From sequence record OR896824.1: a stretch of DNA of 64,000 bases, one strand, 5' to 3'. How positions within the stretch are numbered: the first letter of the stretch is position 1; each line of letters starts with the position of its first letter. Below are positions 5,613-58,448 of the stretch, piece by piece. The DNA comes from Escherichia phage SmurfNell. A program made the translations under genes and the position numbers. The notes beneath the pieces are model-generated. The model worked only from the letters and a program-made list of their open reading frames with translations, was not told the DNA's origin and did not search any database.

Positions 5613-5613
5613 T

Positions 5614-5856
5614 ATGGGAAACGTCGTACATCTGCACCGCAAAACTAAGATCCACCGTACTTCACTGAGTGCTGCTAATATGATTACACGTAAGGAAGGG
5701 GAAGAAAGTCCTAAGACTACCCTAGCGTGGAAAATTGTAGCCTCTAATCCAAATCGGCCTTTTAATTATAATGAACTTTCAACATCAGTAGATATTCTTC
5801 TGAGGGCGAATGCGAAAGCAAAAGTAATTAATCAAGCCGAAAAACTAGACTGGTAA
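5614..5856 (+). CDS. hypothetical protein
   Basis: 80 aa ORF, start overlaps the phoH stop. Confidence 0.4.
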   Translation: MGNVVHLHRKTKIHRTSLSAANMITRKEGEESPKTTLAWKIVASNPNRPFNYNELSTSVDILLRANAKAKVINQAEKLDW

Positions 5857-5911
5857 TATAGAAGGCCTGGGTATGAAAATATCCGGGCTCTTTTTATCTG
5901 TAAAATTGTAC

Positions 5912-5940
5912 TTGCAAAATGACCCAAAACAAAGTAGAAT
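5912..5940 (+). promoter_or_regulatory. sigma70-type promoter (TTGCAA-17-TAGAAT)
   Basis: -35/-10 hexamers with 17 bp spacer upstream of nrdA; implies the real nrdA start is the ATG at 5979. Confidence 0.45.
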
Positions 5941-5978
5941 ATTTCCTAAATCCTGATAACTACAAAAAGGAAAGCCAA

Positions 5979-8309
5979 ATGAGCCATCGCATAGAAAAAG
6001 TAATTAAACGTGACGGTACTGTAGAAGACTTTGCTCCTGAAAAACTCAATGGTTGGGCAGTGTATGGCTGCAAAACAGTTGATGTAAGCTGGTCATCCAT
6101 CACTATGGCTGCTCAAAAAACTCTACCTAAAGGTGTTGTAGACTCCGACACCCTAATGGATGCGTTAATTAAAGCCGCTGAAGGTCTTATCAAAGATAAC
6201 CCAGCATATGACGTGCCGGCTAAGGAATTACGTCTTGCGCAGATGCGTAAACGTCTATATGATTCCTTCGAGCCTCCTTCTCTGCGTTTCTTCCACGATC
6301 ATATGGTTAGTGTTGGAGCTTGGGAAGACATGAGTGCATGGATTACTGATGAACAATTTGAAGCTCTGAATCAAGTTATCGACCATGATCGTGATCGTTT
6401 ATTCACCAGTGGTGGACTGAAACAGTTCTTCGACAAGTATTCCCGTCGTAATATTGCAACTGGTGAAATTTATGAAACTCCGCAGTTTGCCTACATGGGT
6501 ATGGCAATGGCGATGCTATCTCAACCTAACTGGACAATTCTAGATGCAATCGACCTCTACAATGCAATGTCGCTCCACAAAATCAACGTTCCTACGCCGC
6601 CACTGGTTGGCCTGCGCTCTAGTGACCGTGGATTTGCTAGTTGCTGCCTCGTGGATTCCACTGACACGCTGGATTCAATCGACACAGCCGAGCACATCGT
6701 CTTCAAAATGGTCGCAGCCAGAGCGGGAATCGGGTATCATCTTGAAAGCCGATCAATTGCTGATCCGGTGCGAAATGGGGCATTCCCGCATTCCGGAAAA
6801 CTGCCATATTATAGACACATTGACCGATCAGTAAAAGCTAACACTCAGCAAACCCGTGGTGGTTCTGCTACTGTGTCTTACCCATACTTCGATCCTGAAA
6901 TCATTCAGTTGATGCAGGTTAAACAGCAACGTGCTACAGACGAGAATAAAATCGATAAGATGGATTACTCTCTGAGCTTTAACAACCTTCTGTTAAAACG
7001 TTACCTGAAAAACGAAGATATTACGCTAATGTCCTACTTCTACGCACCAGAAGTTCATAAAGCGTTTTATGGTGAAGATGAGGCTAAGTTTGAAGAAATC
7101 TACGTGGCAGCGGAGAAACGTGTGGCATCTCTTACAAAGATCGACCACGAAGGAAAAACAATTCCAGCAGCTCCTAGAATCTCTGCAAAAGAAATCCTAG
7201 ATACTTGGTTACGTATCCGTATGGAAACAGGGCGTATGTATGCTCATCACATTGGTGAATCTAACCGTCATGGTAACTTCCTTGACCCGATTCGTATGAC
7301 CAACCTTTGTGTTGAAATTACTCAGCCAACCCGTCCATTCCATCACATTACGGAACTGTATAAGACCCAAGATCAGTTAGACGATATGCGTCCAGAAGAT
7401 ATTGGTGAAGTATCTTTGTGTAACTTAGGTGGTGTTGTACTAGGTCGCATGGAATCTCTAGCTGAATGGGAGAAAACTTGCTACATCCTTCTGAAATTCG
7501 TTGATACAATCATCGAGATTCAGGACTACCCATTCCCAACCATGGAATACACGGCTAAGAAACGTCGTAACGTTGGTATTGGTCTGATGAACGCGGCAGG
7601 TGCAATGGCAGCAGAAGGTTTGGCTTACGAAGGTGTTGAAGCCCGTAACTGGATTCACCGTGAAGCTGAAAAGCTGTCCTACTTCCTGCACAAAGCCTCT
7701 GTACGTCTGGCTAAAGAACAAGGTGCATGTGACTGGTTTAATCGTACTAAACCATCCAAAGGAACTCTGGTAATCGACACGTACAAGAAAACTGTTGATG
7801 AACTGGTAACTGTAGGTCTAGAAATGGATTGGGAATCTCTGCGTGCAGATATTCTGAAATATGGTATGCGCAACTCTGTTCTGACTGCTCAGATGCCGGG
7901 AGAAAGTTCCTCTGTACTGCTAGGTGTTACTAACTCTATCGAGCCGCCTCGTAAGATTGTATCTATCAAGGGTAGTGCAGTGAATAAAGTAATTGCAATT
8001 GCTCCAGGTGCAACCGATTGGGATACATTAATGAGTTATAAACTGGCTTATGATGTAGATCGTATCGAGTGGATCAAATGGGTAGCAACCATGCAGAAAT
8101 TCTTCAGTCAGTCTATCAGTACGAATATGTACTATGACTACACCAAGTTTGAGAATGAAATCATTCCTGGTCCAGTAGTAGTTCGTGATTTCATGACTGC
8201 TGTTAAGTACGGCTGGAAAACTTGGTACTACGCTAACTTCAACACTGAAAATGGTGGTGGAGCTGGTGAAGAAGCAGCAGGTTGTGCATCAGGTGGTTGT
8301 ACTATTTAA
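5979..8309 (+). CDS. nrdA: ribonucleoside-diphosphate reductase alpha subunit (class Ia)
   Basis: ATP-cone-like N-terminus VIKRDGTVEDF; active-site NLCVEI motif; start set at second ATG with AAAGGA RBS (track ORF begins 5919). Confidence 0.85.
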   Translation: MSHRIEKVIKRDGTVEDFAPEKLNGWAVYGCKTVDVSWSSITMAAQKTLPKGVVDSDTLMDALIKAAEGLIKDNPAYDVPAKELRLAQMRKRLYDSFEPPSLRFFHDHMVSVGAWEDMSAWITDEQFEALNQVIDHDRDRLFTSGGLKQFFDKYSRRNIATGEIYETPQFAYMGMAMAMLSQPNWTILDAIDLYNAMSLHKINVPTPPLVGLRSSDRGFASCCLVDSTDTLDSIDTAEHIVFKMVAARAGIGYHLESRSIADPVRNGAFPHSGKLPYYRHIDRSVKANTQQTRGGSATVSYPYFDPEIIQLMQVKQQRATDENKIDKMDYSLSFNNLLLKRYLKNEDITLMSYFYAPEVHKAFYGEDEAKFEEIYVAAEKRVASLTKIDHEGKTIPAAPRISAKEILDTWLRIRMETGRMYAHHIGESNRHGNFLDPIRMTNLCVEITQPTRPFHHITELYKTQDQLDDMRPEDIGEVSLCNLGGVVLGRMESLAEWEKTCYILLKFVDTIIEIQDYPFPTMEYTAKKRRNVGIGLMNAAGAMAAEGLAYEGVEARNWIHREAEKLSYFLHKASVRLAKEQGACDWFNRTKPSKGTLVIDTYKKTVDELVTVGLEMDWESLRADILKYGMRNSVLTAQMPGESSSVLLGVTNSIEPPRKIVSIKGSAVNKVIAIAPGATDWDTLMSYKLAYDVDRIEWIKWVATMQKFFSQSISTNMYYDYTKFENEIIPGPVVVRDFMTAVKYGWKTWYYANFNTENGGGAGEEAAGCASGGCTI

Positions 8310-8317
8310 TAAAAACA

Positions 8318-8345
8318 AGGAGATCTTCGGGTCTCCTTTTTCTTT
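8318..8345 (+). terminator. rho-independent terminator
   Basis: 8 bp stem AGGAGATC/GGTCTCCT with TTCG loop followed by a T-run. Confidence 0.6.
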
Positions 8346-8355
8346 GAAATTTTAC

Positions 8356-8385
8356 TTGCTAATCGCTACCAGATTTGCTATAATA
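8356..8385 (+). promoter_or_regulatory. sigma70-type promoter ending 5 nt before the HNH start codon
   Basis: TTGCTA-18-TATAAT; ATG at 8391 lies 5 nt downstream of the -10, implying a leaderless transcript. Confidence 0.45.
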
Positions 8386-8390
8386 TCTAT

Positions 8391-8888
8391 ATGAAATTAA
8401 CACAGAGTAGATTAAAAGAGCTAATCTCCTATGACCCTGAAACTGGCGAATTTACCTGGCTCCCAAGAAAAACTTTAGCAAAGCATTTATGGAACGCTAA
8501 AGCAGGAACCTATGATAAATTAGGGTATCTTCGTATAAAAGTTGAAGGAGTTCAATATTTAGCTCATCGCCTAGCCTTCTTGTATATGACTGGAGAAATA
8601 CCAGAAGGAAAAATTGACCATAAAGATACTAATCCGTCTAATTGCGCCTGGGATAATCTCCGTGAAGCCACGAGTTCTCAAAATTCTATGAACTCGTGTG
8701 CAAGATCGGATAACCAGCTTGGAATGAAAAATATTCGTGTAAAAGGCACTTCATTTCAGGTTAGGATAGGCAAAGACGGCAAATCTTATACAAAAACTTT
8801 TAAAACCCTAGAAGAAGCTATAGAATGGAGAGACACCAAACTACTAGAACTTCATGGGGACTTTGCAAACAACGGAGAAGCTAAATGA
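8391..8888 (+). CDS. HNH homing endonuclease (free-standing, between nrdA and nrdB)
   Basis: EGKIDHKDTNPSNCAWDNLREAT HNH motif; C-terminal AP2-like repeat; stop overlaps the nrdB start. Confidence 0.75.
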   Translation: MKLTQSRLKELISYDPETGEFTWLPRKTLAKHLWNAKAGTYDKLGYLRIKVEGVQYLAHRLAFLYMTGEIPEGKIDHKDTNPSNCAWDNLREATSSQNSMNSCARSDNQLGMKNIRVKGTSFQVRIGKDGKSYTKTFKTLEEAIEWRDTKLLELHGDFANNGEAK

Positions 8889-10030
8889 CTACTTTACTTA
8901 ACTTAGAATGGGAACATACTAACGCTGATCTTTTCCTCGGTGATTCTTTGGGTATCGCAGATTATGTGCGTGTGGCACACCCCGAACTAGAGCGATTAGC
9001 TCTGTTGCAGCGTTCCCAGTTCTGGACTGAAACTGAAATTAGTCTTGAAGCTGATAAAAAGCAGTGGGGTAATCTCCCGCGTGATATTCAGGAAATTACT
9101 CTCCTGAACTTAGCATGGCAAACCCAAACAGATTCTTTCATTAGTCGTGCTCCTGAAGCAGCTATTATGCCACTTGTAAGCCGTCCTGAACTGGAAGGTA
9201 TGCTCAAGCAGTGGAGCTACTTCGAAGATCTGCACAGCCGTGCGTATAGTAATATTATTCGTAACGTTCTGACTGATCCAGCAGAATTTATTGATTCTGT
9301 AACTAAAAACCAAGAAGCATTTGCACGTATCGCAGATTCTGTTGAACTGTTTGATGAATTGTATCTGTTAGGTCAGTATTTCCTTGCAGTACGTGATCAT
9401 CGTGGTGATAATACTTATCCAGAAACTGAGTTCCCTGAAGTTAAACGTGAAACTCAGGCTAAGCTGTTAGATGCTTACTTTGCAATCTACGGTCTGGAAG
9501 CAATGCAGTTCTACGCATCCTTTGCATGTACCTTTGCTCTAGCAGAGAACGATATTCTGCAAGGTATTGCCAAGAACCTGCAACTAATTGCTAAAGATGA
9601 AGCTCTGCACACTCAAATGTCTAAAGCTATCATCCAGATTATGTTTCAGCAATTTGATAAAGATCTGGTAGATGAAGCATTAGCTAAAGCACCAGCACAA
9701 CTCCTAAAAACTCTGAAAACTGAGATTGAATGGGGTCACTTTATCTTTAAAGGCCGTAGTCTGATTGGTTTGAACGCAGAACTGCTTGAAGAATATCTTT
9801 ACTTTGTAGGACGTAACGCATTTATGCACATTGGTGTAGAATGGCCAAGCCACTTACCTGTAATTACTAAGAACCCTATTCCGTGGATTATGAACTGGTT
9901 GGATACTACATCTTTACAACCTGCTCCGCAAGAGATTCAGATTGGTGCAGCATATCGTGTAGGTCAGGTAACTGAAACCTCTGCTGATACTCTGAAAGAT
10001 CTTGGCAACGAATTTGAGGGTATGTTCTAA
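8885..10030 (+). CDS. nrdB: ribonucleoside-diphosphate reductase beta subunit
   Basis: 381 aa, size and position typical of NrdB directly downstream of nrdA. Confidence 0.75.
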   Translation: MTTLLNLEWEHTNADLFLGDSLGIADYVRVAHPELERLALLQRSQFWTETEISLEADKKQWGNLPRDIQEITLLNLAWQTQTDSFISRAPEAAIMPLVSRPELEGMLKQWSYFEDLHSRAYSNIIRNVLTDPAEFIDSVTKNQEAFARIADSVELFDELYLLGQYFLAVRDHRGDNTYPETEFPEVKRETQAKLLDAYFAIYGLEAMQFYASFACTFALAENDILQGIAKNLQLIAKDEALHTQMSKAIIQIMFQQFDKDLVDEALAKAPAQLLKTLKTEIEWGHFIFKGRSLIGLNAELLEEYLYFVGRNAFMHIGVEWPSHLPVITKNPIPWIMNWLDTTSLQPAPQEIQIGAAYRVGQVTETSADTLKDLGNEFEGMF

Positions 10031-10560
10031 TGATAGCAGCAATCTATGCAACTGGGCCGAATGGGGAGTTCGGCCTCAATGGTAAACTCCCTTGGGGTTC
10101 TTTCAAAGAAGAACTAGATATCTTCTATGCTACTTTGGATTCTCTAGCACCTGACAATATTATTGTAGGAGCAGGAACTTGGTTAGCATTCCCTGAGACT
10201 CTGCAAAAAAGAATACTAGGAGATTCTGACCTATTTATTTATGCAAATAGACCACTACCTAACTCTGTAGGATCAGCCACACGCATAAGTAACATTGGAT
10301 ACAGTCTACCTGATTTCCTCAAGGAAGAAGTAACTGTAGTATTAGGGGGAGCAACTCTGCTTCTTGAAATGTATGTCAAAAATCATCTAGATATGGCGTA
10401 TATCTCTACTATTACTTCAGCTACACCATTATCTGCTGATGTACATCTGCATCATCACATTACTTTAACTAATTCAATGGCAACTAGAATGGACTATGTG
10501 GCAGGACAGAATGCAGATAAAACGCTTTCATTCTTACAAGAATTGGTGATATTTAAATGA
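10030..10560 (+). CDS. dihydrofolate reductase
   Basis: N-terminal [22 protein letters not shown] matches the DHFR signature; start overlaps nrdB stop. Confidence 0.75.
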
Positions 10561-48991: not shown

Positions 48992-49008
48992 ACGTTAACA
49001 AAATCTTC

Positions 49009-49038
49009 TTGACAACTCATTGTGGCACATGTTATAAT
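49009..49038 (+). promoter_or_regulatory. sigma70-type promoter (TTGACA-18-TATAAT) facing the repeat region
   Basis: Perfect hexamers; no ORF follows. Confidence 0.5.
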
Positions 49039-49078
49039 AATCTCATAGATTAAAAACAACTCTTGTTTTGAACTCTAG

Positions 49079-49190
49079 GGGCGATGATTATTACACTTAG
49101 TATTACGTCTATACGTTGCGACAGCACGAGTATAGATCTAATTACTAAGTCTTCCGTAATACTCACGCGCCCCACGGGTAAGCTCTCATG
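49079..49190 (+). other. large imperfect hairpin, candidate small RNA or processing/terminator structure
   Basis: Nested inverted repeats GGGGCG...AGTATTACG / CGTAATACT...CGCCCC and CTATAC/GTATAG, followed by T-rich tract. Confidence 0.3.
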
Positions 49191-49316
49191 AAATGGGGGC
49201 TACTTTACTTTTTATTTATATGAATATATTTAAAGGCAATATTAACGTTCAAGATGATACACCTGTTGCCGCTCATCTGCTAGGATGGCTCAACACTTTC
49301 TTCTAGACTCCTAAGT

Positions 49317-49420
49317 TTCTAGGAAAACTCTCGCCAACTCAGGCGGTTTTCATGTTCCTAGAAACTCCAGCAATAGGTGGTTTAATACAGGGCGGTTATA
49401 GGGAGGGCGGTTATTTCTAG
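49317..49420. repeat. short direct repeats (GGCGGTT-type and TTCTAGRAA-type)
   Basis: GGCGGTT at about 49333, 49390 and 49405; TTCTAGGA/TTCTAGAA at about 49317, 49356, 49415 and 49477. Confidence 0.45.
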
Positions 49421-49456
49421 GAGACATTTTTTGAAAACACATTTCTGGAAATTACT

Positions 49457-50059
49457 GTCGGATTTGCACACTGTGTTTCTAGAAATTTATGGTCGGATTT
49501 GCACATTGATAGGAGTCTCCAAAGTTTTTAGGAACACTGAAAATAGCAGCATTATTTCGGGCCGAAGGCCCATGTTTGCCTGAGTTTTTTAGAGTCCCAG
49601 GAATTTTCACTTGTCAAGCTATTTTGCCCCATTTTGCTAATAAAATTTCGCAGAATCTCCACTTATCTCAATTCTATCCAAAACATCCCACATTATCCCC
49701 AAAAACGCAGCAAACCGGTGCTGAAGCACCACTACAGCTGCACCCTCCATAGTTCCTCCCAAAAACCTCGTCGGATTCGCACTTCTCCCCAAACCCACAC
49801 AATCACACACCCTCTCATCGAAGTCACAAAAATATTCCTGAAACCATAAATCTGTCTCCTAGCAAACTCATGTCGTATTTGCACATATACGGCTGGATTT
49901 GTGCGCAGCACGAGTCTGCCCGAGTTTTTAGGAAAATTCATTGTCGGATTCGCACACTATAAAAATATTTGCCATCGGATTTGCACACTACCAAAAATTG
50001 TCGGATTCGCACATACACGCTGGCACGTAATCCGTGGGGGCAAATGTCGGATTTGCACA
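49457..50059 (+). repeat. iteron-like array: nine direct copies of 14 bp motif GTCGGATT(T/C)GCACA
   Basis: Copies near 49457, 49492, 49770, 49872, 49893 (degenerate), 49943, 49974, 50000 and 50046, all in the same orientation. Confidence 0.7.
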
Positions 50060-50095
50060 AAAGCGCAGGGCAAATAGAAAATGCCCTGCCTGCCG

Positions 50096-50258
50096 AAATG
50101 CAAATGATAATGAGATTGATTCGCATTTGAGAAGTTGAATGCGAATGCGAATGAGAATAGTTATCATTTGACTACCGGAATACGAATGAGAATGATTCGC
50201 ATTTAGGAAGGGAAACGCGAATGATAATGAGAATGATTCGCATTTAGGAAGCGAAGTG
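50096..50258 (+). repeat. three direct repeats of about 27 bp, GA(A/T)TGAGAATGATTCGCATTTAGGAAG-like
   Basis: Copies near 50108, 50184 and 50228; each contains inverted GCGAAT/ATTCGC arms. Confidence 0.6.
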
Positions 50259-50277
50259 AGAAACACTGTTATTTAAG

Positions 50278-50286
50278 TTATCCACA
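50278..50286 (+). promoter_or_regulatory. DnaA box (TTATCCACA)
   Basis: Exact match to the consensus DnaA box. Confidence 0.5.
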
Positions 50287-50368
50287 GGTTTATTAACAGC
50301 ACGATTTGACTTGACAAAATCCTAGCGATTTTGAGGCGTTTTCAACAGACTTATCAACAGGTTATTCT

Positions 50369-50386
50369 ACTGTATATTTATACAGT
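50369..50386. repeat. 18 bp palindrome ACTGTATATTTATACAGT (copy 1)
   Basis: Perfect dyad symmetry; core repeated at 54387. Confidence 0.6.
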
Positions 50387-50418
50387 ATTTCTGTGTAGTG
50401 AATAACTCTAATATAGCT

Positions 50419-50448
50419 CTAAAACGCTCTGTAACGCATTCTAACGCG
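50419..50448 (+). repeat. 30 bp direct repeat CTAAAACGCTCTGTAACGCATTCTAACGCG (copy 1)
   Basis: Near-identical copy at 54811-54842. Confidence 0.6.
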
Positions 50449-50533
50449 TTTATTTTTGGAGGAGGTATTTTAATAAGGGGAAATTTGTTTGCAGGCAGAA
50501 AAGGCGGGGCCAGATAGTTGCGCCCCGTTATTA

Positions 50534-50728
50534 TTAGTCTGGTAGTCGATGTGTGATCTTTTCGCTTTCGCCGTAGGAGTCTACCAAATGTTGATAGTAA
50601 CCATCGTTATCATAAATCACTTTATCATAATCGCCACGCTCCACCACTTGCCGATTTTCCCGCGTATCAGGCACAAAGAAAGTATCAACGGTAACAGTAG
50701 TTTTAGTTACAACAATTTTATCACTCAT
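50534..50728 (-). CDS. hypothetical protein
   Basis: 64 aa ORF, first gene of the minus-strand cassette. Confidence 0.4.
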   Translation of the reverse strand: MSDKIVVTKTTVTVDTFFVPDTRENRQVVERGDYDKVIYDNDGYYQHLVDSYGESEKITHRLPD

Positions 50729-50858
50729 AACGCCATCGCTCCTAGAATGAGAATGATTATCAATATCATTGTAAAGCCATTACCAAATCGTAAACGCTGG
50801 GAATGTTTCCCAGCGGTATTATTAGATTTATGGCTTTGTGTTTTTCGCCACCAGCTAT

Positions 50859-51071
50859 TCACGGTTTTAAATTCTCTATAGTTAATTTTGCGCGGATAGT
50901 AATTCCGTATAATTCGCCTCCCTTGTTTCTTACATCAGGTAGCCAGTCCCACAATTCAGGGTATCCGCTTAAAATTCCTAGCGATGCAAGATTAGCAATA
51001 AAACCGGCTATAGTAACCGCTTCCAGTGAAATAGTTACACGATTATTAATAACTAAAGTAAACTTTTTCAT
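50859..51071 (-). CDS. hypothetical protein
   Basis: 70 aa ORF. Confidence 0.4.
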   Translation of the reverse strand: MKKFTLVINNRVTISLEAVTIAGFIANLASLGILSGYPELWDWLPDVRNKGGELYGITIRAKLTIENLKP

Positions 51072-51412
51072 TGCGCCACCTTTCGAAACGCTGTTTCGAT
51101 ACTTTCAGCGGTTGATTGAATATACGCGCCTTTCATAATCAGGCGCTCCGTACATACTTTGCGGAAAATGTCAATAAATTCATTTTCATTTTCCGCTATT
51201 AACGCTTCCCCCATAACCTGAATATCGCATGAGTTAAAAGTAAGAAACTGAAAGGCAAGCTCGCGAGCGACAACGGCAGAAACTTTATAATGTGCTTTGC
51301 CTTCATAGATATTAACCACGCCTTTATAAACTGGTGAAAGCTGATTTAAATAGTTTGCTAACAATGCCGGACGGCAATTAGCAACAAAACGATTGCCCTC
51401 ATAAATAACCAT
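51068..51412 (-). CDS. hypothetical protein
   Basis: 114 aa ORF, translationally coupled to the downstream gene. Confidence 0.5.
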   Translation of the reverse strand: MVIYEGNRFVANCRPALLANYLNQLSPVYKGVVNIYEGKAHYKVSAVVARELAFQFLTFNSCDIQVMGEALIAENENEFIDIFRKVCTERLIMKGAYIQSTAESIETAFRKVAQ

Positions 51413-51521
51413 TTGTCAACCTCCTAAAGCTGGGAAAATATCATGTACATTTTTAAAACAAATGCGGCGACGGAACATACAACGCCAACGGTAGCAAACG
51501 CTAGAGCAATATATAAGGATC

Positions 51522-51734
51522 TCATAATACCCCACGAAACGCAGCGTAAAAAGTAGCAAAGTGTTTAACCGTTTCGGCTATCAAATTGCCACGCTTGTCA
51601 AATTTCTTTTCTGTAACACGGAAAGCGTTTTTGTTGCGTGCTACATATTCGATTTTACAATCTGGACGCTCGAACGTGTTAACATCCACCAGCTTAAAAC
51701 CTTTGTAACGGGCAAGGGAAACATTCTTTAACAT
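51522..51734 (-). CDS. hypothetical protein
   Basis: 70 aa basic ORF. Confidence 0.45.
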   Translation of the reverse strand: MLKNVSLARYKGFKLVDVNTFERPDCKIEYVARNKNAFRVTEKKFDKRGNLIAETVKHFATFYAAFRGVL

Positions 51735-51736
51735 TT

Positions 51737-51886
51737 TTATTCCCCTTTACCAGTCATACAGCCTAACAAGTAAGAAAACCCCGCGATACCTGCTCCAATA
51801 ATAACCACGTTAACGCCGAAAGCTATTACAAACAGTGATAAAATAGCGCCCAAGATACTAGCTAGAATAGATCGAAAAATAACCAT
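51737..51886 (-). CDS. small membrane peptide
   Basis: Hydrophobic ORF below the track cutoff, read from the minus strand. Confidence 0.3.
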   Translation of the reverse strand: MVIFRSILASILGAILSLFVIAFGVNVVIIGAGIAGFSYLLGCMTGKGE

Positions 51887-51932
51887 TTTATTAGCTCCTA
51901 GAAATTAGGGGATAATATACCCCCTTTATTAA

Positions 51933-52160
51933 TTACATTAAAACAATTTTTGCCGCTTGCTTTTTAGTGCAATGGTTAGCTTTCAATTCATCCAGCAAAA
52001 ATCCGGCGGTTTGCTGGTCAATCTTGTCATTGTCGTAAAGCCCCTGAATGGTAACATAAGTTTTACCTATGCCGAACTCAGAAACCATAACGCTGACAAT
52101 AGCGGGAACGGATACCCATTCCATACCGTTAAAAATTGCAGAAGATGATGAATGTACCAT
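51933..52160 (-). CDS. hypothetical protein
   Basis: 75 aa ORF. Confidence 0.4.
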   Translation of the reverse strand: MVHSSSSAIFNGMEWVSVPAIVSVMVSEFGIGKTYVTIQGLYDNDKIDQQTAGFLLDELKANHCTKKQAAKIVLM

Positions 52161-52209
52161 TTTAACGCCTCCTAGAAATCAGGGAAAATTTTCAACCCAC
52201 CGTTTCGGT

Positions 52210-52245
52210 GTAAAGGCATTATAACAAAAAAGGTCGCCATAATAG
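52210..52245 (-). terminator. rho-independent terminator (minus strand)
   Basis: AGGTCGCC...GGCGACCT hairpin with a T-run on the minus strand. Confidence 0.5.
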
Positions 52246-52267
52246 GCGACCTTTACAAAACTTTACA

Positions 52268-52762
52268 TTAGACTATTTCTAATGCTTCAACATTAAAACA
52301 GCGTTTTAGTTCTTTCTGTAAAACGGCATATTCATCCCAACGGGAATTATCAGGAATATAAACAAGCTGTTTTAATCGGTTTGCGTATAATAACGCCTTG
52401 TTACCAATTATTTCCGCGCCACCGTGTTTAATAATTAGTTTCATAACGGTATTAATAGGATCGCCACCATTTACATAAGTACCGGACTTACTCAATTGAT
52501 AATGATAAAGACTCGCATATACATTATCATTTTCAATCCATTCCCCTGTTTCTTCATCTTCTTCCCCATCGCTACCGAAACGAGAAGCATTATCATATGC
52601 GTGTTCGTTCGCGAAAGCGTCCAGATCACAGCCAGTGGGAACAAAATGTTCCTCCGTCCAGCCTTCCCCACAATAGCCAGTGTGACAATCAACTAAAACG
52701 ATCATATCGTGTTTAGCTTCACTCACACTTTCTAGCGAAAAGCCATATTTTTCTTCTGACAT
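52268..52762 (-). CDS. acidic hypothetical protein
   Basis: 164 aa, Asp/Glu-rich. Confidence 0.5.
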   Translation of the reverse strand: MSEEKYGFSLESVSEAKHDMIVLVDCHTGYCGEGWTEEHFVPTGCDLDAFANEHAYDNASRFGSDGEEDEETGEWIENDNVYASLYHYQLSKSGTYVNGGDPINTVMKLIIKHGGAEIIGNKALLYANRLKQLVYIPDNSRWDEYAVLQKELKRCFNVEALEIV

Positions 52763-52775
52763 AATTAGTCTCCTA

Positions 52776-53084
52776 TTAATTAGCAGGGAAATAAAGAGAA
52801 TTTGCTACACCGTAAAACCCTTTATTCAAGAAAATTACGTCATCACGGACTATTTCATCCACTCCATAATCCAGCAAAGTTTCACCTGCAAAAATACATA
52901 GCCAGCCATAACCACGATCAAAGAAAGCATGATAATTATTAGCGCTTTCTACATGTTCCCATAAAAAGGGACGCCCTTGCTTTTCCCATACAGGAATATT
53001 GATTTTATCATCTGAATAATTAACGTGGGGGCTATTCGGCATTTTTTCGGCTAATTGCGTCAACATGATTTGATTCAGTTGCAT
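52776..53084 (-). CDS. hypothetical protein
   Basis: 102 aa ORF. Confidence 0.5.
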   Translation of the reverse strand: MQLNQIMLTQLAEKMPNSPHVNYSDDKINIPVWEKQGRPFLWEHVESANNYHAFFDRGYGWLCIFAGETLLDYGVDEIVRDDVIFLNKGFYGVANSLYFPAN

Positions 53085-53135
53085 AATAAGTAGTCTCCTA
53101 ACAATTAACAGGGAAATAATCCCCGCTAGTAATTA

Positions 53136-54137
53136 TTATTCTGTTTCGGTGTTAGTGGTAAAGGTAGAAATATCGATACCTTTTACCATTTCGTCGATCA
53201 TTTCCGCAATATTGAAACTCTGTACCATTTCCAACATTGCCGCTTCCATTGCCGCGCCTGCTACCGCTTTCGCTTTCTGATTAGTCGGGGCGTACTGGTC
53301 AACCGCTACGCTTAACAGGTTAGTGATCACTACGCGACCAATCGGAGTATCAATATAACCTTTAATCATAAACGGCGCTTTTTTAGCCGCTACTTTTGTG
53401 ATTTGAGTCAATGCAATTTTACCCGCTTCCAGTTTAGCAGCGTTTACAACGGCAGATTTGTTAGCAGCAACGATAGAAGATACTTTAGACATAATATTTC
53501 CTTTATTTTCAGTAGTTTGCGCATTTGCGCTTGAAGTTTGAGAGTTTACAGCCTGTTTTGCTACGTTGTCAAGCGGTAAAAGTGTAAATCCAGCATTTGC
53601 AACGTTTGATTCATTCCCATACTCTAAATAATCGTTAGGGATCAACATGTTACCGCTAGCGCGTTCAAAGCACAATACGCCAGTTGTTTCGATTGCGTCA
53701 CTATCAGCACCTTTATAACTGGATGATAATTCACGCCAGATACTATTTAATAACGATCCGACACTATCCAATCTGATATTATTTATTTTTGTTGCTGTTA
53801 CCTGCTCCTTTTCTTGCACGTTATATAATCGCGCAATGTAACCACTATGAGACTCACTATAACCAACAATGATAAAATCAATATCAGTTCCCCGACTATT
53901 ACGGAAAATGTGATAATCACGGTTGAAAATTACTAGCGCCCTTGTCTGGTCTAGTAATAGCGTGAAATCATCGACTGAATAATGAGTATCATTATTATCT
54001 AAAATATCCTCGTGAATTTTTTCAACCATTGCGGCGGTGTGCTGAATACTTGCCGCACTACTACCATCTAGCAGGTTGCGCAAACTACCTTTAACAATAG
54101 TTGCGTTTGCTGGTACTGCAATTCTTACAGTAGACAT
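53136..54137 (-). CDS. hypothetical protein
   Basis: 333 aa ORF, first gene of the leftward unit. Confidence 0.55.
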   Translation of the reverse strand: MSTVRIAVPANATIVKGSLRNLLDGSSAASIQHTAAMVEKIHEDILDNNDTHYSVDDFTLLLDQTRALVIFNRDYHIFRNSRGTDIDFIIVGYSESHSGYIARLYNVQEKEQVTATKINNIRLDSVGSLLNSIWRELSSSYKGADSDAIETTGVLCFERASGNMLIPNDYLEYGNESNVANAGFTLLPLDNVAKQAVNSQTSSANAQTTENKGNIMSKVSSIVAANKSAVVNAAKLEAGKIALTQITKVAAKKAPFMIKGYIDTPIGRVVITNLLSVAVDQYAPTNQKAKAVAGAAMEAAMLEMVQSFNIAEMIDEMVKGIDISTFTTNTETE

Positions 54138-54386
54138 TTCTTTGTCTCCATCATTAATCGGTGAGTGAATGATATAGATAATTGTTCGCTAGGGGCAAGA
54201 AAAAAGAAAAGGTTTTTTATTCCTTGCCTAACGCTTGTTTTTATGCTAATCGCGCGTTTTCTATTTCTAGCTATCTGTAAGCGTACACAAGGCTTTATTA
54301 TAATAAGGGTAGCAGTGAGAAAACGCCGTGTAGCGTGTTCTAGGCCGCTTAAATTTGATTGCGGTTGTTACTGCTACCATTCTACC

Positions 54387-54402
54387 CTGTATATTTATAC
54401 AG
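54387..54402. repeat. palindrome CTGTATATTTATACAG (copy 2)
   Basis: Same dyad core as 50369-50386. Confidence 0.6.
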
Positions 54403-54424
54403 TAGGATAACCTGTATATAAGTC

Positions 54425-54433
54425 TGTGGATAA
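54425..54433 (-). promoter_or_regulatory. DnaA box (TGTGGATAA)
   Basis: Exact reverse complement of TTATCCACA. Confidence 0.5.
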
Positions 54434-54473
54434 GTCGCCAAATCGTCGCCTATTGCGTCAAGTTATTTTGTGC

Positions 54474-54482
54474 TGTGGATAA
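54474..54482 (-). promoter_or_regulatory. DnaA box (TGTGGATAA)
   Basis: Second exact copy 49 bp from the first; one-mismatch copy AGTGGATAA near 54758. Confidence 0.5.
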
Positions 54483-54810
54483 CTTTGTGAATAACCTAAA
54501 TGATAGTGGTTCTCACTTAGCCGATAGTTTCTTATAGTTATTATTTCTCTTTAATTTATATGTATATTATATAATATAAAATAGTTAGTTGGCTAATAGG
54601 TTTTTAGAGTATTAATAGTCTGCTAACTGTTTCGGCTGTTACAATCCACCAGCGTGATCATCATCCTAGCGATTATTAGTCTGCTAATGATCTGATACAC
54701 GTCCAGACTTATTTGTCAATGCAAAATAATAGCAGAAAATACTTTTTTGAAAAATCAAGTGGATAACTCATTAAATTTCATTTTTGCTTTTTGTATAAGT
54801 TATTAACAGC

Positions 54811-54842
54811 CCCTAAAACGCTCTGTAAGCGATTCTAAGCGC
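54811..54842 (+). repeat. 30 bp direct repeat (copy 2)
   Basis: CCTAAAACGCTCTGTAAGCGATTCTAAGCGCC, near-identical to 50419-50448. Confidence 0.6.
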
Positions 54843-55244
54843 CTCAAAGGAAAAGATAAGCAATCATAAGGGGTACACCGAGAAAACCTCACCACGAGGA
54901 TTTTAGATTTTGTCAAGTAGGCAAGAGCAGATATAAATGAAAAAATTACTTGCTAAAATGGTTGTTTTAGTGTTATTCGCGCGCTCGTTTCATTAAATTT
55001 AGTGCGCCGCTGGATGTTTGCGGAGACTGGTTTTCTTTACGTTTCTTTACAAAAATAAGGTTGCGCCCTTCTCGGTATTCTCCTATTATTTATCACGTAG
55101 GGCGGCAATGACGAACTACACGGCGGGGATAACAGCGATTGACAGTCTGTTTGACCTTTCAAAACCCTGCCATGCTCTTTAAAAATTAGGGAACATCTTA
55201 AAGCCTATCGGCGGTAAACTTAGATATTATAAGGAATCGACGAT

Positions 55245-55454
55245 ATGAAACAAACGCTTTTGATCACTGGCAAGCCTATCAAGTCACTTGATAGCAGAAC
55301 AAAAAATTTGTTGACAGTAGCGCAAAGATCGGTAAAATACCGATTCAAGCAATACAAGAAAGGTAAGCAGCAAGGTCTGGAAATGGTGTGGCGTAATATA
55401 ATGATTGATTTATATAACTCACATCAAATCGAAAAAAGTTTAAAAAACGCTTGA
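55245..55454 (+). CDS. hypothetical protein
   Basis: 69 aa basic ORF with AAGGAA RBS. Confidence 0.4.
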   Translation: MKQTLLITGKPIKSLDSRTKNLLTVAQRSVKYRFKQYKKGKQQGLEMVWRNIMIDLYNSHQIEKSLKNA

Positions 55455-55620
55455 CACGCTAGCCGATAGGTTTTAAGATGTTCCCCGTAGTAACTGCTCT
55501 TTAACAATTTGGAAAAACGGTAATGTTTAGGCTAACTCCTAGCGGATTATAATCTAATAGCGTTTCAAAGTATCGAGGCGCTATTGTGGAATAATCCCCC
55601 AATAAACCGGAGTATTAAAA

Positions 55621-55872
55621 ATGCAAAACGTTATTACCGCGCCGAAAGTAGGTCAATCTGTATTCATTCCTTTTGTTACTAAAACGGATGAATTAACCGG
55701 AAAAGTCGAACGTATTAAAGGTGCGGCGCTTGATCCTTTCGATAAAATCGAAGCGGTCTACGCGGAAACGGAACGTAGCAACAACGGCAAGCCTATTTAT
55801 AATGTTCGCGTTAAATCTGGCGACGTTGTAAAGATCATTCAGAAGGATGATAAATGGCAAGCCATAGCATAA
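55621..55872 (+). CDS. hypothetical protein
   Basis: 83 aa ORF. Confidence 0.45.
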   Translation: MQNVITAPKVGQSVFIPFVTKTDELTGKVERIKGAALDPFDKIEAVYAETERSNNGKPIYNVRVKSGDVVKIIQKDDKWQAIA

Positions 55873-55972
55873 ATTAGTGTTACTTTTATATTCCCCTGAA
55901 ATATGGGGAATATATGGATTAACATTAGTTAATCATAATCCCTTAATTAATAATTGAATGGAGTATTAAATT

Positions 55973-56389
55973 ATGTCTAACGTTAAAACCGAAAAAACCG
56001 CAAAATTCTCTTGGAGCGAAGAAAACACCGAAAAAGCTGTTTCTATGTATTCTGAAATGGTTGCTAAAAGCGGCATTGAATTTGCTAACAGTGACGGCCT
56101 AAAAGAAATTGCCGCCGCCGTTGGCGCTGCTAGTCCGGTGTCTGTACGTTCTAAACTGACAAGCGCAAAAGCGTACCAGAAAAGTGATAAACCGCGTAAA
56201 GTTGGCGGCGGGTCTAGTGTCCGTAAAGCTCACTATGTGCGCGTCATTGCTAAACATGCCATTGATAGCGGCATTGTAAAAGACGCTGACGATCTGGCAA
56301 GTCTTGAAAGTGCAAAACTGGAAACGCTGGACGCCGTAGCGCAATTGTTAGGCGTAGCGGAGGAAGTAAAACAGGCCGCAGGTGAATAA
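55973..56389 (+). CDS. hypothetical protein
   Basis: 138 aa ORF. Confidence 0.5.
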   Translation: MSNVKTEKTAKFSWSEENTEKAVSMYSEMVAKSGIEFANSDGLKEIAAAVGAASPVSVRSKLTSAKAYQKSDKPRKVGGGSSVRKAHYVRVIAKHAIDSGIVKDADDLASLESAKLETLDAVAQLLGVAEEVKQAAGE

Positions 56390-56783: not shown

Positions 56784-58448
56784 ATGAATATTTCCGCAGA
56801 AAAACAAGCTCAAATTCTGAAAATGGCCGCAGATTTTAACTTCTACGGTAAGCGTTTACGCGCTACTAAATTGGAAGTTTGCGACGATATTTCAAAAGCT
56901 GTTTATGATACGCCGAAACATTCGACCGCAATTTGTGACTGGCTGGAAGCAAATAAGCCAGCGAAACCTAAAGCGGCAAAAGCTGAAAAGGCGATTAAAA
57001 ATGATGATCGCCCCGAAGCGGCGGGAATTGTTTCTAGTACCGTTGAACAATGGGAAGTTAAATCCGGTCGCCGTTTTATTCTAACGTCGATTCAAAATAA
57101 TACTTTCCCGCATAAAAACTTTTTAGCAAGTCTGGAAAAATTCGCTGAATATTGCGGCGCTGAATTGCTGATTAGTAAATTCATTTATAATAAAAATGGA
57201 TTCCAGAACGGGGAAGGGGCAAACGGTATTAAATACGATCCCGCATTTGATAAATATGTTTGTGATAAAAACGTATTTTTAAATAACCGCCGCTTTGCTT
57301 TCATGGCTGAAATTAACGTTTTACCAACGGCAGATTATCCGCTTTCAGGATTCGCAGAAACCGCCACGGCTTTAAATATCGAAGGTCTGGCAATTGGTCA
57401 CGCAAAAATTACCGCTGAAAGTGTTCCCGCGCTTAAAGGTGAAGTAGTGCGCCGTATGTATTCAACCGGAACGGCTACGCTTAAAAACTACATTCAGCAG
57501 AAAGCAGGTCAAAAAGCTGAGGCTTTACATAATTACGGCGCTTTGCTGGTGGAGTTCGACGACGACGGAGAATTTTATTGCCGCCAGCTTGAAACAATGG
57601 ATGAAAGCGGAATGTTCTATGATTTGAATGTTTGCGCTATGCCTACCGGATGTTTTGAAACGTCCGATCATGTTCTAGGCTTGCAATATGGCGATATTCA
57701 CGCCGAAAAACTAGATGATGATTGCGCCGTCGCTTCATGGGCTAGTGAAAACAGCTTGCTTGATATTCTTAAACCGAAATATCAATTTATTCATGATGTG
57801 CATGATTTTACATCGCGTAACCATCACAACCGCGCTAGTGGTGTATTCCTTGCGAAACAATACGCCGCCGGACGTGATAAAGTTATTGATGATCTTATTG
57901 ATACGGGTCGCGTATTAGAGTCTATGGAGCGTGATTTCTCTCAAACAATCATTGTGGAATCTAACCATGATTTAGCTCTTTCACGCTGGCTTGATGATCG
58001 TAACGCTAACATTAAAGATGATCCCGCAAACGCGGAATTGTATCACCGTCTAAACGCTGCGATTTACGCCGCTATTGCTGAAAAAGATGATACCTTTAAC
58101 GTGCTAGATTACGCCTTGCGTAGTGTCGCAGGTTGCGAATTTAACGCTATTTTCCTGACTACTGACCAGTCATTTAAAATCGCTGGCATTGAATGCGGCG
58201 TACACGGTCACAATGGCATTAACGGCAGTCGGGGCAATCCTAAGCAGTTTAAAAAGTTGGGACGCCTTAACACTGGTCACACTCACACGGCTAGCATTTA
58301 CGGCGGCGTTTATACCGCTGGCGTGGCGGGGTCGCTTGATATGGGCTACAACGTGGGCGCGTCAAGCTGGACGCAAACGCATTTAATTACCTATGCAAAC
58401 GGGCAACGTACTTTGATTGATTTCAAAAACGGTAAATTCTTTGCATAA
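56784..58448 (+). CDS. A1-like pre-early protein with metallophosphoesterase motifs
   Basis: 554 aa; GDIH, SNHD and GHTH motifs; size and context resemble T5 A1 (recalled as about 556 aa). Confidence 0.5.
   Translation: MNISAEKQAQILKMAADFNFYGKRLRATKLEVCDDISKAVYDTPKHSTAICDWLEANKPAKPKAAKAEKAIKNDDRPEAAGIVSSTVEQWEVKSGRRFILTSIQNNTFPHKNFLASLEKFAEYCGAELLISKFIYNKNGFQNGEGANGIKYDPAFDKYVCDKNVFLNNRRFAFMAEINVLPTADYPLSGFAETATALNIEGLAIGHAKITAESVPALKGEVVRRMYSTGTATLKNYIQQKAGQKAEALHNYGALLVEFDDDGEFYCRQLETMDESGMFYDLNVCAMPTGCFETSDHVLGLQYGDIHAEKLDDDCAVASWASENSLLDILKPKYQFIHDVHDFTSRNHHNRASGVFLAKQYAAGRDKVIDDLIDTGRVLESMERDFSQTIIVESNHDLALSRWLDDRNANIKDDPANAELYHRLNAAIYAAIAEKDDTFNVLDYALRSVAGCEFNAIFLTTDQSFKIAGIECGVHGHNGINGSRGNPKQFKKLGRLNTGHTHTASIYGGVYTAGVAGSLDMGYNVGASSWTQTHLITYANGQRTLIDFKNGKFFA

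What the first reader, a model, noticed from the sequence alone, without database searches (positions are those of the whole stretch)
50270..54850. Minus-strand gene cassette bracketed by matching repeat modules carrying DnaA boxes and an identical palindrome
Both sides of the leftward gene block 50534..54137 carry the same set of elements: TTATCCACA DnaA boxes (50278; 54425 and 54474 inverted; variant near 54758), the palindrome core CTGTATATTTATACAG (50369 and 54387), a shared TTATTAACAGC motif, and a 30 bp direct repeat (50419 and 54811). The cassette lies in a compositionally distinct block next to iteron arrays. This looks like an origin-like or DNA-transfer-control module, or a mobile or recombination-bounded insert, rather than ordinary intergenic DNA.
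Basis: seen in the sequence. Interest (0 to 1): 0.7.

Follow-up and report, generated by a model that had tools for sequence, protein, structure and literature searches.

The report
T5-type injection-stop repeats, with LexA boxes
The two matching repeat modules around this gene block are the already-described inverted repeats of the phage T5 "injection stop" region, but each also carries what looks like a very strong binding site for the host SOS repressor LexA, apparently unreported, which gives a new way to test how T5-like phages pause DNA injection.

Summary
A ~135-nt inverted repeat (50251-50387 and 54385-54521, 76-80% complementary) brackets eleven minus-strand genes in the pre-early region of a T5-like Salmonella/Escherichia phage.

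It is not new. The arms align to T5's annotated IRD'-spacer-IRC' (92%) and IRC-spacer-IRD (78%). Davison (bioRxiv 10.1101/866236) described these, with their eight paired DnaA boxes, as part of the candidate injection stop signal. Both arms are present in all 39 informative related loci, and the arm sequence matches 532 phage records.

- **Not a mobile element.** The arms do not co-evolve within genomes. The cassette has no recombinase, and its content changes only by internal gain and loss of genes.
- **Pairing not essential.** Primer mapping shows a published viable T5 mutant lacks the cassette and the promoter-side arm but keeps the iss-side arm.
- **Possibly new.** The shared palindrome is a near-consensus LexA operator. 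Its heterology index is 0.95 on the iss side and 4.76 on the promoter side, against 2.35 for the best E. coli K-12 site. It sits next to DnaA boxes in related Klebsiella, Pectobacterium, Proteus and Vibrio phages. The same 20-mer precedes DinI-family genes in 29 unrelated viral contigs. I found no paper making this link.

Function remains untested.

The parts
49449..50070 (+). Array of about 8 copies of GTCGGATT(T/C)GCACA, equivalent to T5 direct repeat D. Five copies contain ATTTGCACA, one mismatch from a DnaA box
   Evidence: families D3-D5; T5 DRD annotation
50098..50246 (.). Four ~32-nt partly palindromic units (AATGATAATGAGAATGATTCGCATTT), equivalent to T5 direct repeats C/E and palindromes E-I
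   Evidence: D1, D2, I5, I7. The Fur-box resemblance was tested and is not specific
50251..50387 (+). iss-side arm, equivalent to T5 IRD'-spacer-IRC' (Repeat Region 3). Co-oriented DnaA-type boxes at 50278 (consensus), 50290, 50339 and 50351, plus a weaker fifth at 50362. Invariant TTGACA in the spacer
   Evidence: (92% identity to T5 9332-9464, no gaps)
50368..50387 (.). Near-consensus LexA operator TACTGTATATTTATACAGTA, 19/20 to consensus, heterology index 0.95. Equivalent to T5 palindrome D
   Evidence: consensus from PMC8072944
50419..50448 (+). Phased motif copy 1: AACGC-N5-AACGC-N5-AACGCGTT. Its core (GCTCTGTAACGC) starts about 38 nt inside the palindrome
   Evidence: (D6)
50495..50530 (-). 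Terminator-like hairpin after the last cassette gene, equivalent to T5 palindrome C / putative terminator
   Evidence: -13.5 kcal/mol, z -1.28, weak on its own; for the T5 equivalent
50534..54137 (-). Accessory pre-early operon of 11 ORFs. Includes a 333-aa DUF7566 protein (homologue of T5 gene 011) and a 70-aa homologue of the T5 gene 015 Ung-dependent nickase. The rest are of unknown function
   Evidence: gene functions
54169..54198 (-). Likely cassette promoter (TTGCCC-18-TATCAT), equivalent to T5 putative promoter T5P4
54318..54343 (.). Weak copy of the phased motif, equivalent to T5 inverted repeat B'
   Evidence: (D6, 69%)
54385..54404 (.). Second LexA-type operator CCCTGTATATTTATACAGTA, heterology index 4.76
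54385..54521 (-). Promoter-side arm, equivalent to T5 IRC-spacer-IRD (Repeat Region 2). DnaA-type boxes on the minus strand at 54486, 54474, 54425 (all consensus) and 54413, plus a weaker fifth at 54402
   Evidence: (78% to T5 6022-6152)
54540..54600 (.). Very AT-rich stretch with promoter-like hexamers on both strands, just outside the promoter-side arm
54800..54842 (+). DnaA-like TTATTAACA followed by phased motif copy 2 (AACGCTCTGTAAGCGATTCTAAGCGC). Lies in the region of T5 inverted repeat B

Best explanation
The two modules are the T5-family pair of mirror-image non-coding elements in the first-step-transfer part of the terminal repeat. They correspond to IRC-spacer-IRD on the promoter side and IRD'-spacer-IRC' on the injection-stop side. 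They flank a variable, dispensable accessory pre-early operon.

Each module is an ordered set of binding sites for proteins already present in the host when the DNA enters:
1. Two pairs of co-oriented DnaA boxes, 12 bp start to start, with 40 nt between the inner boxes of the two pairs.
2. A fifth DnaA-like box that overlaps a near-consensus LexA operator.
3. About 38 nt further in, a conserved 10-bp-phased motif.

[quoted passage not shown] The promoter-side copy is an auxiliary duplicate that lies between the cassette promoter and an AT-rich, promoter-like stretch on its other side.

Shown: the identity with the T5 elements, the site content, the conservation, and the dispensability of the promoter-side copy.
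Inferred: protein occupancy and any role in the pause.
For: - Direct alignment to the annotated T5 elements.
- Both arms are present in 39 of 39 informative loci, and the arm sequence matches 532 phage records.
- The iss-side arm is 92.5% identical between genomes, while the genes between the arms come and go.
- Shared columns fall in discrete blocks, and arm-specific differences are fixed. Within-genome arm-to-arm identity is 74.9% against 74.6% between genomes. This fits independently maintained protein sites and not DNA or RNA pairing.
- DnaA-type boxes occur at 9-13 per kb against 2.4 per kb background, and nearly all share one orientation on each side (10/11 and 7/8).
- LexA operator: heterology index 0.95 and 4.76. 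The next best site in the window scores 13.1, and the lowest in 200 shuffles was 5.05.
- The module is retained in Klebsiella, Pectobacterium, Proteus and Vibrio phages.
- The same 20-mer lies 18 nt upstream of DinI-family genes in 29 unrelated viral contigs.
- The pause occurs without phage protein synthesis, and it does not occur in FhuA proteoliposomes. That implies a pre-existing cellular reader.
- Adjacent and overlapping DnaA and LexA sites have a host precedent at uvrB.
Against: - No binding or genetic experiment exists for these sites. The 2023 BF23 paper says so explicitly.
- The LexA boxes are not at recognisable promoters, which is atypical for operators.
- Four of 31 promoter-side arms have lost the CAG half-site.
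- The centre dinucleotide is always TT or AA and never the consensus TA. That hints at a constraint other than LexA affinity.
- A protein bound to DNA that is already inside the cell does not obviously stop further entry.
- T5 lacking the promoter-side arm is viable, so pairing of the two arms is not required.
- From my own knowledge, not tested here: T5 is thought to grow on recA hosts. If so, LexA cleavage cannot be an obligatory restart trigger.
Confidence: 0.55

Rival explanations
1. The conserved palindrome and boxes are recognition or cleavage sites for the phage's own A2 DNA-binding dimer or the A1-A2 complex, which restarts transfer. On this view the resemblance to host LexA and DnaA sites is incidental or a form of mimicry.
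For: - A2 is a dimeric dsDNA-binding protein required for second-step transfer, and it binds A1.
- Davison proposed A1/A2 cleavage at one of the palindromes, naming PalD among the candidates.
- The centre of the palindrome is more uniform than LexA binding alone would require.
- Some decayed copies keep TGTATATTTATACA but lose the C or G that LexA needs.
Against: - The pause itself needs no phage protein synthesis.
- A 19/20 match to the LexA consensus, together with canonical TTATCCACA boxes, is hard to attribute to chance.
- A2 has no recognisable domain or solved relative, so nothing predicts its specificity.
- The two views are not exclusive: A2 could displace the host proteins.
Confidence: 0.2
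2. The arms are transcription-control elements. DnaA and LexA bound there repress, insulate or time the pre-early promoters, with no role in DNA transfer.
For: - The promoter-side arm lies between the cassette promoter and an AT-rich, promoter-like stretch.
- DnaA and LexA co-repress host promoters such as uvrB, recN and dinJ.
- Deleting the promoter-side arm together with the cassette gives only a small-plaque phenotype.
Against: - Neither SOS box overlaps a credible -35/-10. The promoter-side box is about 190 nt upstream of the cassette promoter.
- The better-conserved, stronger iss-side copy lies downstream of a terminator, with no known promoter nearby.
- Pre-early shut-off is attributed to A1.
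Confidence: 0.15
3. The inverted repeats are recombination boundaries of a mobile or invertible gene cassette.
For: - Inter-arm length ranges from 1.6 to 4.06 kb with variable gene content.
- The block holding the 333-aa and 164-aa gene homologues is flipped relative to the arms in Klebsiella phage Sugarland and apparently in Pectobacterium phage My1.
Against: - No recombinase, transposase or invertase domain.
- No target-site duplication is evident at the outer ends.
- Both arms are present in all 39 informative loci, with no empty site.
- No concerted evolution of the arms.
- 0 of 29 Markadamsvirinae genomes show an inversion.
- In Sugarland the flip is not a clean arm-to-arm inversion, because two small genes keep the T5 orientation.
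Confidence: 0.05
4. The DnaA-box clusters form a DnaA-dependent replication origin.
For: - Clustered, co-oriented DnaA boxes.
- An AT-rich stretch adjoins the promoter-side arm.
Against: - T5 origins were mapped near the genome centre, and replication genes are not on the first-step DNA.
- The promoter-side arm, with its AT-rich neighbour, lies in the region deleted in a viable T5 mutant.
- No AT-rich unwinding region lies next to the iss-side arm.
Confidence: 0.03

Closest known systems
Phage T5 IRC-spacer-IRD (6022-6152) and IRD'-spacer-IRC' (9332-9462) of AY587007, in Repeat Regions 2 and 3, the candidate injection stop signal (GenBank annotation; Davison, bioRxiv 10.1101/866236)
   Same: Orthologous sequence (78% and 92%), with the same position, orientation, box layout and spacer. 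The neighbouring DRD and DRC/DRE arrays, the terminator and the flanking variable operon also match.
   Different: This is a different phage, Epseptimavirus-like and closest to SB13 in this region. There is no HNH insertion between Repeat Regions 1 and 2. The cassette is longer (4.0 kb against 3.2-3.4 kb in T5). All eight boxes are intact, whereas T5 has seven.
E. coli uvrB promoter region, with adjacent and overlapping DnaA and LexA boxes (PMC6015884)
   Same: A composite of DnaA boxes and LexA boxes on one short stretch. One DnaA-type box overlaps a LexA box, which at uvrBp3 makes the two proteins compete.
   Different: At uvrB the sites sit on promoters and control transcription. Here no promoter overlaps them, the LexA site is far closer to consensus, and the element is duplicated in mirror image.
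LexA operators of SOS-induced prophage genes (DinI/Tum-type genes of 186-like prophages)
   Same: The identical 20-mer TACTGTATAWWTATACAGTA lies 18 nt before a DinI-family gene in 29 viral contigs.
   Different: Those operators sit directly in front of the gene they would control, in elements that look temperate. Here the host phage is strictly virulent, and the nearest gene start is about 250 nt away or absent.
oriC-type DnaA box arrays
   Same: Several co-oriented DnaA boxes at roughly one helical turn (11-12 bp start to start), mixing consensus and one-mismatch sites.
   Different: There is no evidence of an unwinding element or of initiation here. The location is on first-step DNA, and one copy is dispensable.

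Membership tests
T5-type IRC-spacer-IRD / IRD'-spacer-IRC' repeats (candidate iss region) | Sequence homology to T5 6022-6152 and 9332-9462 | tested here: met
   local alignments give 78% (promoter-side) and 92% (iss-side, ungapped). One search confirms by BLAST.
T5-type IRC-spacer-IRD / IRD'-spacer-IRC' repeats (candidate iss region) | Two copies in inverted orientation flanking the opposite-strand pre-early operon, with the distal copy next to the DRE/DRD arrays | tested here: met
T5-type IRC-spacer-IRD / IRD'-spacer-IRC' repeats (candidate iss region) | Eight DnaA or DnaA-variant boxes in four pairs separated by 3 bp, with a constant spacer | tested here: met
   boxes at 50278/50290, 50339/50351, 54486/54474 and 54425/54413, with 3-nt gaps within pairs and 40 nt between the inner boxes in both arms. 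No indel relative to T5 in the iss-side arm.
T5-type IRC-spacer-IRD / IRD'-spacer-IRC' repeats (candidate iss region) | Lies within the long terminal repeat, at the point where first-step transfer stops | not testable with these tools
   Neither genome ends nor the transfer stop can be seen in a 64-kb window. The homologous DNA is inside the annotated terminal repeats of T5, Sugarland, My1 and Stubb.
LexA operator (SOS box, gammaproteobacterial type) | CTGT-N8-ACAG palindrome close to TACTG(TA)5CAGTA | tested here: met
   19/20 and 17/20 matches. Consensus taken from PMC8072944 and PMC12527982.
LexA operator (SOS box, gammaproteobacterial type) | Heterology index within the range of sites that bind LexA | tested here: met
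   The matrix was recovered exactly from PSOSP Table S1. Scores are 0.95 and 4.76, against recA 4.31, sulA 4.65 and the best K-12 site at 2.35.
LexA operator (SOS box, gammaproteobacterial type) | Overlaps or adjoins the promoter of a regulated gene | tested here: not met
   only weak 9/12 promoter-like matches overlap the boxes. The cassette promoter is about 190 nt away. The iss-side box follows a terminator.
LexA operator (SOS box, gammaproteobacterial type) | LexA binding and SOS-dependent effect shown experimentally | not testable with these tools
   No experiment was found in the literature searches.
Mobile element or invertible segment bounded by terminal inverted repeats | Encodes or adjoins a transposase, integrase or invertase | tested here: not met
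   no such domain in ten of the eleven cassette ORFs scanned (the 47-aa ORF 51416-51559 was not scanned). for the neighbouring genes.
Mobile element or invertible segment bounded by terminal inverted repeats | Presence/absence or orientation polymorphism of the whole unit among close relatives | tested here: not met
   both arms in 39 of 39 loci; 0 of 29 inversions within Markadamsvirinae. A partial block inversion appears only in distant genera.
DnaA-dependent replication origin | DnaA box cluster with an adjacent AT-rich unwinding element and origin activity | tested here: inconclusive
   Boxes are present, and an AT-rich stretch lies beside the promoter-side arm only. Mapped T5 origins are mid-genome, and the promoter-side arm is deletable. 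Origin activity cannot be tested here.

The most novel reading that the evidence does not exclude
The palindrome at the inner end of each arm is a working, very high-affinity LexA operator, so host LexA, together with DnaA, is a reader of the T5-type injection-stop region. LexA occupancy would help hold or organise the first-step DNA. Its loss, either by displacement by A1/A2 or by RecA-driven cleavage once A1 destroys the host chromosome, would link host takeover to release of the paused DNA or to the pre-early programme. I found no paper that connects T5-like phages with LexA boxes. Older subscription literature could not be searched.
Probability: 0.25. Interest if true: 0.75.

Novelty: already known. 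Interest (0 to 1): 0.4.

Why it matters
What stops T5 DNA after 8% has entered the cell has been an open question since the 1960s. The only sequence-based proposal is membrane-bound DnaA acting on these repeats, and it has never been tested.

The finding as handed over rediscovers those repeats, so it adds little by itself. Two follow-up results do add something:
- **A second host protein.** LexA has a predicted site on the iss-side arm that is stronger than any in E. coli K-12, and that site is conserved across the phage family. Standard host mutants and small phage edits could test its role.
- **An existing mutant.** Mapping published primers shows that a viable T5 mutant already lacks one arm and the cassette. 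This rules out an essential role for the pairing of the two arms and directs attention to the iss-side copy.

Tried and rejected
- **Fur boxes in the DRC/DRE units.** They match 14-15 of 19 positions, but equal or better matches are scattered through coding DNA in the window. Rejected.
- **Concerted evolution or pairing of the two arms.** Within-genome identity is 74.9% against 74.6% between genomes, with a permutation p of 0.03 for a 0.3-point difference. No meaningful homogenisation.
- **Per-position conservation against the LexA penalty matrix.** Spearman 0.5 with n = 7, and the sites were chosen by a biased filter. Inconclusive.
- **Locating promoter PN25 from my recollection of its sequence.** No match in the T5 terminal repeat or the window. 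Dropped.
- **Rfam scan of 49000-55300.** Only two sub-threshold sRNA hits inside the cassette and nothing in the repeats.
- **A2 domain or solved-structure search.** Nothing found, so A2 specificity cannot be inferred.
- **IHF consensus.** It matches only where a box happens to read TTATCAACA in this phage, and it is not conserved in relatives (by eye).
- **T5 nick-site link for the GCGC-ending motif.** The BF23 paper gives no nick consensus, and T5 nick 1 (CCCTGCGC) shares only GCGC. Unresolved.
- **Davison's 2015 review.** Could not be retrieved.

Full report
**What the window is.** The region 49000-56000 matches 539 phage records. The best are T5-like Salmonella and Escherichia phages of the genus Epseptimavirus, led by SB13 at 96%. 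Genes A2 (55973-56389) and A1 (56784-58448) lie just to the right on the plus strand. The finding therefore sits in the pre-early, first-step-transfer part of the terminal repeat, in reverse orientation relative to the standard T5 map.

**Check of the observation.**
- The sequence and the repeat finder show one long inverted repeat, 50251-50385 against 54387-54521, at 76-80% complementarity. It flanks eleven minus-strand ORFs at 50534-54137.
- TTATCCACA occurs four times in 64 kb against 0.56 expected, and three copies are in the arms.
- The 16-nt palindrome occurs only in the two arms.
- TTATTAACAGC is not above chance.
- The "30-bp" direct repeat is really 26 bp at 88% identity.
- Only GC skew differs from the surroundings, and it follows gene orientation. 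GC content does not differ.

**Identity.**
- The GenBank record of T5 (AY587007) annotates inverted repeats C and D (6022-6152), D' and C' (9332-9462), B and B', palindromes C and D, and the DRC and DRD arrays.
- The window's left arm aligns without gaps to T5 9332-9464 at 92%. The right arm aligns to 6022-6152 at 78%.
- Davison's preprint compares 25 T5-like phages. It describes these 131-bp elements, their eight DnaA boxes in pairs 3 bp apart and their constant spacer. It also notes the poorly conserved genes between them, transcribed from the opposite strand, and proposes that membrane-bound DnaA stops injection there.
- The window has that layout. Boxes lie at 50278/50290 and 50339/50351 on the plus strand, and at 54486/54474 and 54425/54413 on the minus strand. 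The gap between the inner boxes is 40 nt in both arms.
Later papers state that its function has never been tested.

**Comparative behaviour.**
- Using A2 as an anchor I fetched 40 related loci. Every locus that extends far enough (39) has both arms in the same orientation relative to A2.
- The arm sequence matches 532 phage records.
- Between genomes, the iss-side arm is 92.5% identical and the promoter-side arm 85.9%.
- Arm-to-arm identity is 74.9% within genomes and 74.6% between genomes. Ten alignment columns are fixed but differ between the two arms.
- The arms are therefore two old, independently maintained copies that share discrete conserved blocks. This fits protein-binding sites. It does not fit base pairing or gene conversion between the arms.

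**Mobile-cassette idea.**
- Inter-arm length ranges from 1.6 to 4.06 kb, and genes come and go. All shared genes keep their orientation in 29 distinct Markadamsvirinae genomes.
- No recombinase-type domain is present. The recognisable products are a DUF7566 protein, homologous to T5 gene 011, and a homologue of the T5 gene 015 Ung-dependent nickase.
- In Klebsiella phage Sugarland, and apparently in Pectobacterium phage My1, the block containing the 333-aa and 164-aa gene homologues is flipped. Two small genes keep the T5 orientation, so this is not a clean arm-to-arm inversion. Davison had already noted the opposite-strand transcription there.

**Experimental evidence already available.**
- A 2026 preprint built T5 ΔLΔR, deleting "hegG to 017". 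The mutant is viable with small plaques.
- I mapped its primers from the supplement onto AY587007. The homology arms are 5051-5392 and 9082-9418.
- The deletion therefore spans 5393-9081. It removes the whole promoter-side arm, repeat B', the cassette promoter and genes 011-017. It keeps palindrome D and the iss-side arm.
- The bracketing architecture is thus not essential under laboratory conditions. This agrees with Davison's remark that some lineages lack part or all of the promoter-side copy.

**A LexA operator in each arm.**
- The palindrome reads TACTGTATATTTATACAGTA on the iss side. The LexA consensus is TACTGTATATATATACAGTA (PMC8072944; PMC12527982), so the match is 19/20. The promoter-side copy matches 17/20.
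- I recovered the additive heterology-index matrix exactly, with zero residual, from 140 E. coli K-12 sites listed in PSOSP Table S1.
- On that scale the iss-side site scores 0.95 and the promoter-side site 4.76. For comparison, the best K-12 site scores 2.35, recA 4.31 and sulA 4.65.
- The next best site in the window scores 13.1. The lowest score in 200 shuffles was 5.05.
- Across related loci the iss-side site scores 0.95-3.3 and the promoter-side site 0.95-7.1. Four of 31 distinct promoter-side arms have lost the CAG half-site.
- The unit "DnaA-box pair, TTATcc, SOS-like palindrome" is retained in Klebsiella, Pectobacterium, Proteus and Vibrio phages whose A1 proteins are only 32-42% identical. 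In the most distant of these the centre varies while CTGT...ACAG persists.
- The exact 20-mer also occurs in at least 69 sites in non-T5 viral contigs. In 29 of them it lies 18 nt upstream of a DinI-family gene, a classic SOS-regulated gene type.
- Davison's text never mentions LexA or SOS, and five literature searches found no link.

Caveats on the LexA reading:
- The boxes are not at credible promoters.
- The centre dinucleotide is always TT or AA and never TA.
- Subscription-only literature could not be checked.

**The "direct repeat".**
- The motif is three AA(CGC/GCG) pentamers at 10-bp phase. It aligns to an unannotated stretch at about T5 9262-9300, and its other copies fall in the T5 repeat B and B' regions.
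- The 22-mer AACGCTCTGTAAGCGATTCTAA is present letter for letter in Vibrio phage VCPH.
- A copy sits about 38 nt inside the iss-side palindrome in several genera.
- The conserved module therefore extends to about 200 nt. What binds this part is unknown.

**How it most likely works.**
- The pause happens without phage protein synthesis, and it does not happen in FhuA proteoliposomes. Whatever reads the DNA must therefore already exist in the cell.
- DnaA and LexA both fit that requirement, both have high-scoring sites here, and the two are known to share and compete for overlapping sites at uvrB.
- I therefore favour, at about 0.55, the view that the arms are host-protein landing pads belonging to the first-step-transfer control region. 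On this view the iss-side copy is primary and the promoter-side copy auxiliary.
- That these proteins cause the pause is inference only.
- Rival views, in order of weight: sites for the phage A2 or A1-A2 proteins, pure transcription control, recombination boundaries, and a replication origin.

**Verdict.** The LexA-operator reading and the mapped deletion make the old question of what stops T5 DNA transfer more directly testable.

Noticed in passing
window 50377-50378 and 54394-54395; alignment of 62 arms from L001-L042: The central dinucleotide of the palindrome is TT or AA in every arm (iss side 21 AA / 10 TT, promoter side 27 AA / 3 TT). It is never TA or AT, which would make a perfect palindrome and the exact LexA consensus. 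It flips between nearly identical phages, for example this window against SB13. That suggests small inversions or template switching within the palindrome, not point mutation.
   Followed up: partly
window 50423-50444, 54817-54838, weak copy 54322-54343; L043:3556 (-): The 22-mer AACGCTCTGTAA(CGC/GCG)ATTCTAA consists of three pentamers at 10-bp phase. Within a copy the CGC/GCG state tends to be shared: all three pentamers are CGC in copy 1, and the second and third are GCG in copy 2. It is identical in a Vibrio phage (VCPH, a distant Demerecviridae member) and recurs several times in pre-early non-coding DNA across the family. Its binding partner or function is unknown.
   Followed up: partly
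L053-L129 (non-T5 viral contigs), e.g. L097:366: The exact T5-type 20-mer palindrome lies 18 nt upstream of a 146-aa DinI-domain (Tum-like) gene in 29 prophage-like contigs.
   Followed up: yes
T5 AY587007 5393-9081 (L002): Primer mapping shows the published viable T5 ΔLΔR mutant lacks the promoter-side arm, repeat B', promoter T5P4 and genes 011-017. It retains palindrome D and the iss-side arm. The length of its first-step DNA has not been reported.
   Followed up: yes
window 56784-58448 versus 49000-56000: The A1 protein is 100% identical to that of Salmonella phage Stitch, while the adjacent 7 kb is closest to phage SB13 (96%). This indicates mosaic exchange within the terminal repeat.
   Followed up: no
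window 55189-55212 and 55462-55485: A 24-nt inverted repeat (96% complementary) brackets the 69-aa DUF7416 ORF at 55245-55454. It is probably the equivalent of T5 inverted repeats A and A', which overlap putative pre-early promoters.
   Followed up: no
L045 (Sugarland) 6116-9216; L044 (My1) 8019-10487: In Sugarlandvirus and Myunavirus the block containing the DUF7566 gene homologue is transcribed toward A2, not away from it, and there is a divergent promoter region inside the inter-arm segment.
   Followed up: partly
window 49462, 49497, 49877, 49979, 50051: Five of the DRD-type repeat units contain ATTTGCACA, one mismatch from the DnaA box consensus, all on the plus strand. They add to the DnaA-type sites beyond the eight described in the arms.
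   Followed up: partly
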